Shown one piece after another: positions 5,641-7,421 of a stretch of 45,585 nucleotides of DNA. The stretch's first letter is position 1. The number at the start of each line of letters is the position of its first letter. The notes below the pieces were generated by a model. It was not told the origin of the DNA and did not search any database. It saw only the letters and a program-made list of their open reading frames with translations. Source of the stretch: a virus (lineage: Duplodnaviria; Heunggongvirae; Uroviricota; Caudoviricetes); IMG/VR virus record IMGVR_UViG_648276647_000019, positions 1 to 45,585 of that record. The stretch is one strand, 5' to 3'. Position numbers and translations under genes: made by a program.

Positions 5641-7421
5641 ACAGTTTAACGGCAAATAACCGTTTGTCGCAACAGCTGGTGGTCAGCGTCGCTGAACACC
5701 TGTTGTTACGGCATGAATGCAGATTACCAAATCACCTGGCTGTAAGTAACCACAGAGAACTTTACCTGACTGTGGGGGGCGAGTTGTGCAGGAACTTAAC
5801 CGCTGGTTTCGTGACGGAAGAGGGCTTTATGTTCATGTTATTCGTTGGGAACCAGAAACACAGCGCGTTATCTATCTTCGCAAAGACTACCCGCATGAGT
5901 GCTTTAGTCCTTTGTGGAAATTCAGGCGTGATTTTGTTGAGTGTGAAGGACCACCCGCACATTGATTCTGCCATTCCGGGACGTTACACTGTTCAGGCAC
6001 CTTATAAAGCGGGTGCCGGGCGTGAGAACCCGGAATTCACCAAAGCGCACAACCGCGCTCTTGCGGTTTTTTTGTGTCATGAGCAGCATTACGCCCAAAT
6101 TATGGTGGGGCGTGCAGGGCCAACTTCGGTTGGGCCGGGTTCTTTGGTGACCGGTTTCTCACCCCTGTACGTCTCACCACCTATTGCCGTGAGAAGCCTT
6201 GGTGGTGAGTTATTAAAAATCACCAAAGAGGCTGCCATCATGGCTACGATCCCAACCCTCACTCAACCTGACATCACGATTATCAACGGTCGTGTTGTCA
6301 CCACATCTCTTGCAGTTGCTAACTACTTTACTAAACGACATGAGCGAGTTTTAGATAGAATTCGAAACCTAGAATGCTCCGCTGAATTTACTGAACACAA
6401 TTTTGTGTTAAGTGAATACACTGACGCATCAGGCCGCAAACTACCTTGCTATCAAATAACCCGCGACGGCTTTGCGTTTCTTGCTATGGGTTTCACGGGT
6501 AAACGTGCTGCCCAGTTCAAAGAGGCATACATCAATGCCTTTAACCAGATGGAGAAACGCTGCATTACGGCGTTATCCCTTTTTGACTATCTCCGCTTGT
6601 TGCGCCTTGCTGGTGTTCCGGGTTATATTTCTCGCGTTGCTGTAAATCCAGCAACCGGGTTTAGCAGCCCGGAACACATCACAGCGCACAACCGCGCCTG
6701 CGGTTTTTTTGTGTGCAATGCCCGGTCACATCTGAATTATGGTGGCCTGGGTAGGGGAGCCGAAAGGCTCGCCGGGTTCTGTGATGACCGGTCTGCTAAC
6801 CCTGCTCAGGTCACCACCAGTTGTTTAGCAGCAGCTTGTGGTGATAAGTCAAAACTCATCACAGGGGCTGTCGTTATGACTACCATCCCAACCCTCGCTC
6901 AACCTGAACTTTGTGTTATTGATGGCAAAGTCGTTACTTCTTCGCTGGCTGTTGCCGATTATTTCCATAAACCCCACAAAGACGTACTGGCAAAAATTTC
7001 TCGTCTGGATTGTTCAGTTGAATTTACCGAGCGAAATTTCTCGCTCAGCAAATACATCGATGTAACTGGTCGTAAGTTACCGTGCTATCACATCACTAAA
7101 AACGGCTTCGCGTTCCTGGCTATGAGTTTTACTGGCAAGCGAGCGGCTCGTTTTAAAGAGGCGTACATAAACGCCTTTGACCAGATGGAGAAACAGCTTT
7201 CAACTCCATCGGTGCTGAGCGATGTAGCACATAATGCCAGCGTTCTTTATTCCTACATTTCATCCATTCATCAGGTCTGGTTACAGCAGCTTTATCCCAT
7301 GCTGGAAAAAGCTGAATCACCGCTGGCTGTAAGTCTGTATGACCGAATTAACGATGCGGCATTTCTTGCCCGTCTTATCCATTCGTCACTGAACCCTTCA
7401 GAGGTAAGGGGGCGCAAATGA
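5637..7421 (+). CDS. Rha-family phage regulatory/antirepressor protein, continuous ORF containing two Rha domains (internal candidate starts at 6240 and 6876)
   Basis: ATG at 5637 overlaps the upstream stop (ATGA) with a GGAGAAA RBS; two Rha-like domains (TIPTLTQP...FKEAYINAFxQMEK) lie in one frame with no stop until 7421. Whether this is one protein or several is unresolved. Confidence 0.5.
   Translation: MNSLTANNRLSQQLVVSVAEHLLLRHECRLPNHLAVSNHRELYLTVGGELCRNLTAGFVTEEGFMFMLFVGNQKHSALSIFAKTTRMSALVLCGNSGVILLSVKDHPHIDSAIPGRYTVQAPYKAGAGRENPEFTKAHNRALAVFLCHEQHYAQIMVGRAGPTSVGPGSLVTGFSPLYVSPPIAVRSLGGELLKITKEAAIMATIPTLTQPDITIINGRVVTTSLAVANYFTKRHERVLDRIRNLECSAEFTEHNFVLSEYTDASGRKLPCYQITRDGFAFLAMGFTGKRAAQFKEAYINAFNQMEKRCITALSLFDYLRLLRLAGVPGYISRVAVNPATGFSSPEHITAHNRACGFFVCNARSHLNYGGLGRGAERLAGFCDDRSANPAQVTTSCLAAACGDKSKLITGAVVMTTIPTLAQPELCVIDGKVVTSSLAVADYFHKPHKDVLAKISRLDCSVEFTERNFSLSKYIDVTGRKLPCYHITKNGFAFLAMSFTGKRAARFKEAYINAFDQMEKQLSTPSVLSDVAHNASVLYSYISSIHQVWLQQLYPMLEKAESPLAVSLYDRINDAAFLARLIHSSLNPSEVRGRK
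5966..6239 (+). repeat. Structured repeat unit 1 preceding rha copy 1
   Basis: Contains terminator-like AACCGC-loop-GCGGUUUUUUU (about 6046-6072), hairpin ACGCCC/GGGCGU, cUUCGg tetraloop hairpin (6116-6140), CCGGGTTC, and UCACCACC/GGUGGUGA helix. Confidence 0.6.
6600..6875 (+). repeat. Structured repeat unit 2 preceding rha copy 2
   Basis: Same element order as unit 1; terminator-like hairpin about 6682-6708; GNRA (GAAA) tetraloop hairpin GGAGCC/GGCUC in place of the UUCG hairpin; second helix kept via a G-U pair. Confidence 0.6.

What the first reader, a model, noticed from the sequence alone, without database searches (positions are those of the whole stretch)
5786..5965. Hidden 59-aa ORF in an alternative frame inside the 594-aa ORF
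In the +2 frame relative to the long ORF there is a GTG-initiated 59-codon ORF (5786-5965), just below the 60-aa track cutoff, preceded by a G-rich SD-like run (GGGGGG) and encoding a Trp/Arg-rich peptide (QELNRWFRDGRGLYVHVIRWEPETQRVIYLRKDYPHECFSPLWKFRRDFVECEGPPAH) that reads like a small nucleic-acid-binding protein. If real, the overlapping part of the long ORF is probably not the expressed frame there.
Basis: seen in the sequence. Interest (0 to 1): 0.4.

Follow-up and report, generated by a model that had tools for sequence, protein, structure and literature searches.

The report
Real small gene nested inside ymfM
The 59-codon ORF is a genuine, already catalogued small prophage gene (DUF4222 family), and it lies out of frame inside a ymfM-like gene whose own frame is also kept open by selection, so two proteins appear to be read from the same DNA, one of them from the locus credited with blocking E. 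coli cell division.

Summary
The ORF at 5786-5965 (+, GTG, 59 aa, G-run 6 nt upstream) exists as described. It is a real gene. It scores 51 bits against Pfam DUF4222 (cutoff 27), and RefSeq annotates the identical ORF as "DUF4222 domain-containing protein". Homologues of about 59 aa occur across Enterobacterales down to 41% identity, with pN/pS 0.30 and a confident SH3/Tudor-like model.

The 5' end of the 594-aa ORF is the counterpart of K-12 e14 ymfM ("cell division inhibitor"). Its non-overlapping N-half is under purifying selection (pN/pS 0.33). Its frame has no stop across the DUF4222 gene in 35 of 35 relatives, against about 2.3 expected per sequence. RgdR-type DUF4222 genes, which have no ymfM, carry 2-4 stops in that frame.

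So this is a conserved dual-coding overlap. The 594-aa ORF itself is a composite: the ymfM-like frame without its usual stop, two isrK/C4 leader RNAs and two Rha copies.

The published ymfM experiments do not separate the two frames. Which product causes the filamentation (SfiC) is therefore untested.

The parts
5077..5640 (+). ymfL (CII/CP76-like early regulator), the gene upstream
   Evidence: Pfam PF06892 E=5.8e-13. RefSeq annotates it as ymfL in near-identical E. coli loci.
5637..5785 (+). N-terminal, non-overlapping half of the ymfM-like ORF. Its ATG overlaps the ymfL stop (ATGA). This is the 5' end of the 594-aa ORF.
   Evidence: Position and start are the same as K-12 ymfM b1148. BLASTP to K-12 YmfM gives 31% identity, E=1e-7. 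In the main subfamily this part has pN/pS 0.33. Window versus C. braakii alone gives 0.84, which is inconclusive.
5774..5779 (+). GGGGGG run, a Shine-Dalgarno-like element 6 nt before the GTG. It also reads as G GGG GGC in the ymfM frame.
   Evidence: Homologues have GGAGG or AAGGAG at the equivalent place. Database variants fuse the two frames exactly here (P0140).
5786..5965 (+). DUF4222 small-protein gene (59 aa), the reported ORF
   Evidence: AF2 model pLDDT 91.
5787..5966 (+). continuation of the ymfM-like frame across the DUF4222 gene (dual-coded stretch). The usual ymfM stop is missing here, so the frame runs on.
   Evidence: There are no stops in this frame in 35 of 35 relatives against about 2.3 expected. 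The control set has 2-4 stops. AF2 predicts the corresponding tail as disordered.
5984..6184 (+). leader RNA unit 1: c4-a1b1 (weak match), isrK (5997-6073) and C4 antisense RNA (6098-6184). A terminator-like hairpin lies at 6051-6068.
   Evidence: Rfam isrK 63.6 bits and C4 83.4 bits, both above gathering score. Terminator scan. The Pfam 'Phage_ASH' hit (aa 117-211) maps onto this RNA.
6240..6557 (+). Rha copy 1 (Phage_pRha domain). It has an internal ATG at 6240 preceded by AGAGG, and it lacks its own C-terminal part and stop.
   Evidence: Pfam PF09669. Coordinates and RBS.
6623..6821 (+). leader RNA unit 2 (c4-a1b1, isrK, C4)
   Evidence: Rfam 53.2, 70.8 and 85.2 bits.
6876..7421 (+). Rha copy 2 with C-terminal domain, the end of the 594-aa ORF
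   Evidence: Pfam PF09669, two stretches. Coordinates.
7609..7833 (+). 74-aa ORF, annotated 'hypothetical protein' in relatives. Its resemblance to DUF4222 is weak.
   Evidence: Pfam E=0.083. hhalign probability 4%. Annotated.
7901..8102 (+). leader RNA unit 3 (c4-a1b1, isrK, C4)
   Evidence: Rfam 44.3, 68.6 and 82.3 bits.
8160..8717 (+). Rha copy 3
   Evidence: Pfam PF09669 E=9.6e-27. Coordinates.
8714..9655 (+). O-like replication initiator (HTH_36). In most relatives this gene directly follows and overlaps DUF4222.
   Evidence: Pfam. Synteny by tblastn.

Best explanation
Window 5786-5965 is a genuine, independently initiated gene for a 59-aa DUF4222 protein. It is predicted to fold as a small five-stranded SH3/Tudor-like beta-barrel. 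It sits in the early rightward operon of an e14-like lambdoid prophage, in the order cI-like ymfK <- | cro-like -> ymfL -> ymfM/DUF4222 -> replication genes.

The gene lies in the -1 frame inside the 3' half of a ymfM-like gene. Both frames are maintained. DUF4222 is under amino-acid-level purifying selection. The ymfM frame keeps a conserved, predicted-folded N-terminal half of about 55 aa and a sequence-unconstrained, probably disordered tail, which is nevertheless kept free of stop codons across the DUF4222 gene.

In most relatives the ymfM stop, the ribosome-binding site and ATG of the O-like replication gene, and the DUF4222 stop all fall within about 25 nt. In this window's lineage, isrK/C4-Rha antirepressor-like modules lie between DUF4222 and the replication gene. 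The usual ymfM stop is absent, so the ymfM-like frame runs mechanically through two structured leader RNAs and two Rha copies to give the '594-aa ORF'.

Inferred, not shown: DUF4222 is made on prophage induction and acts as a small host-directed modulator by binding a host protein, or weakly DNA. Its only studied relative, RgdR, alters host transcription and motility. The open ymfM tail may serve YmfM itself, or may carry ribosomes to the replication-gene start.
For: - **ORF and family:** the ORF and its Pfam hit are.
- **Existing annotation:** the identical ORF is annotated by RefSeq as WP_001379286.1 in a 99%-identical locus. The DUF4222 ORF is also annotated at the K-12-type locus in every one of the 30 listed records except the last, out of 2015 matching E. 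coli records.
- **Start site:** the start codon sits at the same position with an SD in 30 homologous loci from many genera.
- **Codon pattern:** codon-position differences are 0.24/0.17/0.52.
- **pN/pS in the overlap:** 0.30 in the DUF4222 frame against 1.43 in the ymfM frame. The ymfM N-half gives 0.33 against 1.07 and 1.56 in the other frames.
- **ymfM-like ORF:** an ORF of 108-120 aa starts at the ymfL stop in 27 of the 29 loci that have ymfL. There are 43 protein clusters of 104-159 aa, 40 of them 108-114 aa.
- **Stop avoidance:** the ymfM frame has 0 stops in 35 of 35 sequences. Synonymous resampling expects about 2.3 stops per sequence and P(open) of about 0.03. Within-gene codon permutation still expects 0.15-1.6 stops, while the +2 frame matches expectation. 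The product of these conservative probabilities over 19 clusters below 85% nt identity is 5e-10.
- **Site-level evidence:** Leu4-Asn uses only CTT or CTC. Val18-Ile and Val28-Ile use only GTT or GTC.
- **Control:** 48 RgdR-type DUF4222 genes have 2-4 stops in that frame.
- **Structure:** DUF4222 model pLDDT 91. YmfM model is confident for residues ~10-62 and has pLDDT ~35 for 65-108.
- **Inside the 594-aa ORF:** Rfam isrK/C4 units and a terminator-like hairpin.
Against: - No expression data exist for either frame in this window.
- Within the window's own lineage, only one diverged comparison was available for the ymfM N-half (window versus C. braakii), and it gives pN/pS 0.84. The ymfM-like part could therefore be decaying here.
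- The ymfM frame in the overlap shows no amino-acid constraint (pN/pS 1.43), and PGAP does not call it.
- The stop-avoidance statistics treat related sequences as partly independent.
Confidence: 0.8

Rival explanations
1. Only the DUF4222 gene is translated. The long frame across it is an untranslated by-product, and ymfM is at most a ~50-aa N-terminal peptide whose apparent extension is accidental.
For: The ymfM frame in the overlap has pN/pS 1.43. AF2 predicts that part as disordered. PGAP annotates DUF4222 but not ymfM in every listed RefSeq record that covers the locus. YmfM has no Pfam family.
Against: There are no stops in that frame in 35 of 35 sequences, against expectation and against the RgdR control. 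The ORF length and stop position just before the replication-gene start are tightly conserved. Forbidden synonymous codons are absent at specific sites.
Confidence: 0.13
2. The DUF4222 domain is made as the C-terminal part of a YmfM-N::DUF4222 fusion, by -1 ribosomal frameshifting or by slippage at the G-run (G GGG GGC, 5774-5780), rather than from its own start.
For: The G-run fits the X XXY YYZ pattern in the ymfM frame. A database variant, P0140 (109 aa, 19 member sequences, 44 contigs), is exactly this fusion.
Against: Other subfamilies have no slippery heptamer but keep an ATG, GTG or TTG with an SD at the same position. The DUF4222 frame is closed 12-18 codons upstream of the start in most loci. 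Free-standing DUF4222 proteins such as RgdR exist. Frame switches occur at various other positions in other variants (P0139, P0159, P0199, P0043), which looks like indels or sequencing errors.
Confidence: 0.05
3. The 59-aa ORF is a chance ORF, and the 594-aa ORF (or an antisense ORF at 5762-5974) is the only real gene there.
For: Short alternative-frame ORFs are common. The antisense frame is also open in the window.
Against: The Pfam hit is above the curated cutoff. Homologues reach 41% identity with pN/pS 0.30. The fold prediction is confident. The antisense frame carries a stop in 6 of 35 relatives. The 594-aa ORF contains two Rfam-confirmed RNA units and a terminator-like hairpin.
Confidence: 0.02

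Closest known systems
DUF4222 (Pfam PF13973) small prophage proteins, as annotated by NCBI PGAP (e.g. WP_001379286.1)
   Same: The ORF, length, start and sequence match (97% to database clusters). The domain covers nearly the whole protein. The position after ymfL is the same.
   Different: Nothing essential differs, so this is a member. In this lineage the C-terminus is ...ECEGPPAH instead of ...EIExDHEH, and the gene is followed by isrK/C4-Rha modules rather than directly by the replication gene.
RgdR (ECs1581) of EHEC O157:H7 cryptic prophage CP-933C, the only experimentally studied DUF4222 protein (Flockhart et al. 2012, PMC3378721)
   Same: It has the same Pfam domain (82 bits). It is prophage-encoded and lies immediately upstream of, and overlapping, a replication gene (the primase ECs_1582).
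   Different: Identity is only 32%. RgdR is 99 aa with N- and C-terminal extensions and pI 10. Its RGD motif aligns with L4-N5-R6 of the window protein, so the motif is absent here. The RgdR gene has 2-4 stops in the +1 frame, so there is no overlapping ymfM-like gene.
ymfM (b1148) of E. coli K-12 prophage e14, 'cell division inhibitor YmfM' / SfiC (Ansari et al., bioRxiv 10.1101/2020.11.19.390815)
   Same: The first ~110 codons of the 594-aa ORF occupy the same position. They share the ATGA overlap with ymfL and the same frame relation to DUF4222. K-12 ymfM contains a 59-aa DUF4222 ORF at L039 2502-2681 that is 64% identical to the window's.
   Different: Identity in the ymfM frame is only 31%. 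The window frame lacks the stop before the downstream gene and continues for 594 codons. No functional test exists for the window version.
Overprinted (out-of-frame overlapping) gene pairs of phages and viruses
   Same: One frame encodes a conserved folded domain. The other encodes an unconstrained, predicted-disordered segment that is kept open.
   Different: Here only the tail of the longer gene is overprinted. The overlap also ends in a compact junction with the start of a third gene (and the alignment).
P1/P7 immI-type c4 antisense RNA and Salmonella Gifsy-1 isrK leader modules
   Same: Three Rfam-confirmed a1b1/isrK/C4 units each precede an antirepressor-like (Rha) gene.
   Different: They are not part of the DUF4222 gene and are not linked to it elsewhere. 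Only 1 of 36 DUF4222 loci has them.

Membership tests
DUF4222 (PF13973) | Score above Pfam's curated gathering threshold, with near full-length domain coverage | tested here: met
   51.1 bits against a cutoff of 27, E=9.5e-14, profile positions 4-51 of 53.
DUF4222 (PF13973) | Family-wide conserved residues (D10, G13, V16, V18, V28, R32, Y35, C39, P42, F46, F50 in window numbering) | tested here: met
   These are the nearly invariant columns of the 52-sequence alignment, and all are present in the window protein. Eight are invariant in the alignment that includes RgdR.
DUF4222 (PF13973) | Evolves as a protein (purifying selection in this frame) | tested here: met
   pN/pS is 0.30 across 18 loci and 0.18 for window versus C. 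braakii. Third-position excess is seen.
RgdR-type regulators | RGD motif (residues 20-22 of ECs1581), reported as functionally important | tested here: not met
   RGD aligns with L4-N5-R6 of the window protein.
RgdR-type regulators | Activation of LEE1/T3S and repression of motility | not testable with these tools
   The phenotypes come only from PMC3378721 and nothing here bears on them.
YmfM (e14 cell-division inhibitor) - for the overlapping long frame | ORF starting at the ymfL stop (ATGA), in frame +1 relative to DUF4222 | tested here: met
YmfM (e14 cell-division inhibitor) - for the overlapping long frame | Length of about 108-120 aa, with a stop just upstream of the replication-gene start | tested here: not met
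   The window frame has no stop until 7421. The same holds in C. braakii and E. coli relatives.
YmfM (e14 cell-division inhibitor) - for the overlapping long frame | Sequence similarity of the N-terminal domain | tested here: inconclusive
   31% identity to K-12 YmfM, E=1e-7 pairwise, and 34% to the main subfamily. The window type was not reached by the main-subfamily search.
YmfM (e14 cell-division inhibitor) - for the overlapping long frame | Inhibits Z-ring formation when expressed | not testable with these tools
   The published constructs contain both frames.
Programmed -1 frameshift cassette | Conserved slippery heptamer at the frame junction | tested here: not met
   G GGG GGC is present only in the window type. 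Other subfamilies have ...CGGAGGGCAAAACGCTTATG... with no X XXY YYZ pattern.
C4 / isrK RNA (RF01695, RF01394) - for the interior of the 594-aa ORF | Covariance-model score above Rfam's gathering score | tested here: met
   C4 scores 83.4, 85.2 and 82.3 bits (gathering 45). isrK scores 63.6, 70.8 and 68.6 bits (gathering 50).

The most novel reading that the evidence does not exclude
e14-like prophages across Enterobacterales carry a selected dual-coding cassette, in which a DUF4222 gene is nested out of frame in ymfM. Under this reading the SOS-associated division block attributed to ymfM (SfiC) is caused wholly or partly by the nested DUF4222 protein. The published pBAD-ymfM construct would include DUF4222 codons 1-53 with its own AAGGAG-TTG start, and a Keio-type ymfM deletion would remove most of DUF4222.
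Probability: 0.3. Interest if true: 0.75.

Novelty: new member of a known kind. Interest (0 to 1): 0.5.

Why it matters
The short ORF itself is ordinary and is already in RefSeq under an uninformative DUF name. Three things are worth knowing.

1. **Conflicting annotations of the same DNA.** Curated K-12 calls it ymfM, "cell division inhibitor". PGAP calls it DUF4222 at the K-12-type locus, including in other MG1655 assemblies. The comparative evidence indicates that both frames are under selection.

2. **SfiC assignment.** The experiments that assigned the long-sought SfiC division inhibitor to ymfM cannot tell the two products apart. The assignment can now be tested directly with frame-specific mutations.

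3. **Annotation of long Rha and ash proteins.** The long "Rha family" and "ash family" proteins annotated in this lineage are probably over-extended ORFs that read through a real small gene and through structured regulatory RNAs.

Tried and rejected
- **Linkage of DUF4222 to isrK/C4 RNAs.** Rfam scans of 36 homologous loci found the RNAs in only one, so the small gene is not part of the C4/antirepressor module.
- **Wider locus search.** The search for related loci with the 52-sequence alignment failed because no stretch was conserved enough. I used RgdR as the query instead.
- **The 74-aa ORF at 7609-7833 as a second DUF4222 copy.** Pfam gives E=0.083 and hhalign gives 4% probability, so this is not supported.
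- **Antisense ORF at 5762-5974.** It is interrupted in 6 of 35 relatives, so I rejected it.
- **Frameshift fusion.** There is no conserved slippery site, so it stays only as a low-probability rival.
- **Promoter scan of 4600-6400.** No consensus sigma-70 sites were found.
- **Literature.** No paper in the held library links ymfM with ribosome profiling, with an overlapping gene or with DUF4222. The journal version of the ymfM paper is not held.
- **Selection within the window lineage.** The available relatives are nearly identical, and the single diverged pair was inconclusive for the ymfM N-half.
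Full report
**1. The observation**

It lies in the +2 frame relative to the 594-aa ORF at 5637..7421. A GGGGGG run at 5774-5779 ends 6 nt before the GTG. The peptide has 8 Arg and 3 Trp, but also 9 acidic residues. Its calculated pI is 7.85, so it is not a basic peptide.

**2. The short ORF is a real gene**

- It matches Pfam DUF4222 (PF13973) at 51.1 bits against a curated cutoff of 27. The E-value is 9.5e-14, and the match covers profile positions 4-51 of 53.
- In an E. coli genome that is 99% identical over this stretch, RefSeq annotates the same 180-nt ORF as "DUF4222 domain-containing protein" WP_001379286.1. Another E. coli locus has the same annotation.
- A search of 5.8 billion proteins returned 33 clusters, mostly 59 aa long, from Escherichia, Salmonella, Citrobacter and Kosakonia, down to 64% identity.
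- A profile search of 1.84 billion cluster representatives found 80 relatives.
- A scan of one genome per species found 36 loci in Enterobacterales, down to 41% identity.
- In 30 of the 36 loci a start codon (ATG in 24, GTG or TTG in 6) sits at the aligned position. In most of them a GGAGG or AAGGAG-like element lies upstream. The protein ends after about 59 residues.
- Pairwise nucleotide differences by codon position are 0.24, 0.17 and 0.52.
- pN/pS in this frame is 0.30 across 18 loci. It is 0.18 between the window and Citrobacter braakii.
- AlphaFold2 with a 52-sequence alignment gives a confident model: mean pLDDT 91, five strands and a short helix.

**3. Context**

The window is an e14-like lambdoid prophage. 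The gene order is:

1. a cI-like repressor at 4080-4754 on the minus strand (ymfK-type);
2. a cro-like gene;
3. ymfL at 5077-5640 (CII/CP76 family);
4. the region in question.

In nearly all homologous loci the order continues ymfL, then a gap of 145-190 nt, then DUF4222, then an O-like replication gene whose start lies about 11 nt before the DUF4222 stop. In the window that O-like gene is at 8714-9655 (HTH_36).

Three extra modules lie between DUF4222 and the O-like gene. Each is a c4-a1b1/isrK/C4 RNA unit followed by a Phage_pRha domain. The RNA units are at 5984-6184, 6623-6821 and 7901-8102 (Rfam; Pfam). All three isrK and C4 matches exceed gathering score, and of the c4-a1b1 matches only the second does.

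These RNAs are not generally linked to DUF4222. Only the closest locus (C. braakii) of 36 has them.

**4. What the 594-aa ORF is**

It is a composite of five parts:

| Part | Coordinates |
|---|---|
| (a) a ymfM-like frame | from 5637 |
| (b) translation of RNA unit 1 | 5984-6184 |
| (c) Rha copy 1, with its own ATG at 6240 behind AGAGG and no C-terminal part or stop | 6240-6557 |
| (d) translation of RNA unit 2 | 6623-6821 |
| (e) Rha copy 2 | 6876-7421 |

The Pfam "Phage_ASH" hit (aa 117-211, nt 5985-6269) coincides with RNA unit 1. A terminator-like hairpin with a T-run at 6051-6068, the 3' end of isrK, lies inside the ORF.

RefSeq treats this stretch inconsistently. In some genomes it is a 382-aa "Rha family" protein starting at the ymfM ATG with no DUF4222 call. 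In others it is a shorter Rha or ash protein that overlaps an annotated DUF4222 gene.

**5. The overlapped frame is not junk**

In E. coli K-12, the gene at this position is ymfM (b1148, 112 aa, "cell division inhibitor YmfM"). It starts on the ymfL stop (ATGA). K-12 ymfM contains, in the -1 frame, a TTG-initiated 59-aa DUF4222 ORF behind AAGGAG. This ORF is at L039 2502-2681, scores 67 bits against Pfam, and is 64% identical to the window's.

*Conservation of the ymfM-like ORF*

- In 27 of the 29 loci with a recognisable ymfL, an ORF of 108-120 aa starts at or next to the ymfL stop. It runs in this frame and stops about 20 nt before the DUF4222 stop. The other two have a shorter ORF in that frame (95 aa) and none.
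- Three loci without a detectable ymfL also have such an ORF.
- The protein database holds 43 clusters of these proteins, 40 of them 108-114 aa long, down to 46% identity. All are unnamed and have no Pfam family.

*Selection on the two halves*

- The non-overlapping N-half is under purifying selection. pN/pS is 0.33 in the ymfM frame, against 1.07 and 1.56 in the other two frames.
- AlphaFold2 predicts the N-half as folded: three strands and a long helix, pLDDT 80-87 for residues ~10-62.
- The overlapping C-half shows no amino-acid constraint (pN/pS 1.43). It is predicted disordered (pLDDT ~35).

*Stop-codon avoidance*

- The C-half frame has no stop codon across the first 52 DUF4222 codons in all 35 distinct sequences.
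- Resampling synonymous codons with the window's codon usage predicts about 2.3 stops per sequence. The probability that the frame stays open is about 0.03.
- The more conservative permutation of each gene's own codons still predicts 0.15-1.6 stops. The +2 frame behaves as expected under this test.
- Over 19 clusters below 85% nt identity, the product of these conservative probabilities is 5e-10. The lineages are not fully independent, so this figure is only indicative.
- At single sites the avoidance is direct. Leu4 before Asn uses only CTT or CTC, whereas CTG, CTA, TTA and TTG would each create a stop. Val18 and Val28 before Ile use only GTT or GTC, never GTG or GTA.
- As a control, 48 distinct RgdR-type DUF4222 genes, which have no ymfM upstream, carry 2-4 stops in that frame of the domain.

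I conclude that both frames are maintained by selection. This is a dual-coding overlap with the usual signature of overprinting: a folded, conserved domain in one frame and an unconstrained, disordered segment in the other.

In K-12-type loci four signals lie within about 25 nt: the ymfM stop, a GAGG, the ATG of the replication gene, and the DUF4222 stop. This suggests, but does not show, that translation of both frames is coupled to the replication gene.

**6. The window's own lineage**

Here the DUF4222 C-terminus reads ...ECEGPPAH instead of ...EIExDHEH. The ymfM stop, which in K-12 is created by GAA ATA GAG, is absent, and the frame runs on.

The window's ymfM-like N-half is only 31-34% identical to other YmfM proteins. 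The single diverged comparison available gives pN/pS 0.84. Whether a YmfM-like product is still functional in this lineage is therefore open.

The DUF4222 gene is clearly constrained in this lineage (pN/pS 0.18).

**7. Relation to known proteins**

*RgdR*

- The only studied DUF4222 protein is RgdR (ECs1581) of EHEC prophage CP-933C. It activates LEE1 and type III secretion, represses motility, and binds DNA weakly and non-specifically (PMC3378721; review PMC10877973).
- I retrieved its gene (L042 23305-23604). It scores 82 bits on DUF4222.
- It is 32% identical to the window protein. Its RGD motif aligns with L4-N5-R6, so the motif is absent here.
- It also sits directly upstream of, and overlapping, a replication gene, in its case a primase.

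*YmfM*

- Ansari et al. (bioRxiv 10.1101/2020.11.19.390815) cloned the ymfM ORF in pBAD24 and used a ymfM deletion. No frame-specific mutation, tag or western blot is described.
- Earlier screens used fragments spanning the whole region.
- If the insert ended at the ymfM stop, it would hold DUF4222 codons 1-53 with its own ribosome-binding site. This is my inference from the coordinates.
- A Keio-type deletion would also remove most of the DUF4222 ORF. This rests on my knowledge of the Keio design and on the same coordinates.
- The experiments therefore do not say which product blocks division.
- At this locus PGAP annotates DUF4222 and not ymfM in every listed record that covers it, out of 2015 matching E. 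coli records. These include other MG1655 assemblies.
- I found no paper in the held library that mentions the overlap.

**8. Rivals**

- **Only DUF4222 is translated (about 0.13).** The stop-avoidance data contradict this, but without expression data it remains possible.
- **A -1 frameshift or slippage fusion at the G-run (about 0.05).** P0140 (109 aa, 44 contigs) is exactly such a fusion. However, other subfamilies lack a slippery site and keep their own start codon.
- **A chance ORF or an antisense gene (about 0.02).** The comparative data exclude this.

**9. Verdict**

The short gene is real and is already catalogued as DUF4222. The 594-aa ORF is a composite, but the frame that overlaps the short gene is the conserved ymfM frame and is itself under selection.

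The most interesting consequence is that the identity of the e14 division inhibitor can now be re-tested with frame-specific mutants.

Noticed in passing
window 5984-6269 and 7902-8192: The Pfam 'Phage_ASH' (PF10554) hits map almost exactly onto the Rfam c4-a1b1/isrK/C4 RNA units. The hits are aa 117-211 of the 594-aa ORF and aa 25-121 of ORF 7830-8717. The 'Ash protein family' and PGAP's 'ash family protein' may largely be translations of a structured regulatory RNA.
   Followed up: partly
window 5984-8717: There are three tandem isrK/C4 + Rha modules. The first Rha copy (6240-6557) has lost its C-terminal domain and stop, and it is fused in frame to the leader of the second module. This looks like an unequal-recombination product.
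   Followed up: partly
window 6051-6068: An intrinsic-terminator-like hairpin plus T-run, the 3' end of isrK copy 1, lies inside the 594-aa ORF. There is no in-frame stop between the ymfM-like start and this terminator.
   Followed up: no
window 5774-5779; proteins P0140, P0139, P0159, P0199, P0043: Public databases hold chimeric proteins that switch between the ymfM and DUF4222 frames. The commonest, P0140 (19 members, 44 contigs), switches exactly at the G6 run, as if it had 7 G. Salmonella phage 118970_sal3's 'putative antirepressor' (P0159) is another. Because both frames are open, any indel gives a plausible-looking ORF.
   Followed up: partly
proteins P0164 and P0168 (78 aa), relative to window 5637-5780 and 7330-7421: Deletion variants join the ymfM-like N-half directly to the last ~30 residues of the Rha protein (...LYDRINDA...SEVRGRK). 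DUF4222, the RNAs and Rha are all removed. P0168 has 22 member sequences.
   Followed up: no
window 7609-7833 and 7418-7612: Two small ORFs of 74 and 64 aa lie between Rha copy 2 and module 3. The 74-aa ORF is annotated 'hypothetical protein' (WP_000620696.1) in relatives, where it directly precedes the replication gene, the position DUF4222 holds in e14-type loci. Its similarity to DUF4222 is not significant.
   Followed up: partly
L039 2656-2681 (K-12 e14): The ymfM stop (TAG), a GAGG, the ATG of the replication-type gene ymfN/oweE, and the DUF4222 stop all lie within about 25 nt. The conserved ...DHEH C-terminus of DUF4222 is encoded by the start region of the next gene.
   Followed up: partly
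L034-L036 (Providencia, Erwinia), around 2983-3166: There is no YmfM N-domain here. Even so, an ATG 4-7 nt from the DUF4222 start opens a ~58-codon ORF in the same +1 frame, and it ends just before the replication gene. The two ORFs are almost co-extensive. In Providencia the +1 product begins with a hydrophobic stretch.
   Followed up: no
L042 23305-25733 (O157 Sakai): rgdR (ECs_1581) overlaps the start of the primase gene by 4 nt. DUF4222 genes sit immediately upstream of a replication gene in both prophage types examined.
   Followed up: partly
L025 (Vagococcus sp. WN89Y) and L030 (Geobacteraceae MAG): Typical enterobacterial ymfL-ymfM/DUF4222 prophage sequence appears in assemblies labelled as a Firmicute and a Deltaproteobacterial MAG. 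Contamination or mis-binning is likely.
   Followed up: no
window 5670-5700 versus L003 2885-2915: The differences between the window and C. braakii in the ymfM-like N-half cluster in one ~30-nt patch (GGTGGTCAGCGTCGCTGAACACC versus GGCGCCAGAGGCTTATGAGCGCC). The outer bases stay complementary in both, which might be a small hairpin. This was seen by eye and not tested.
   Followed up: no
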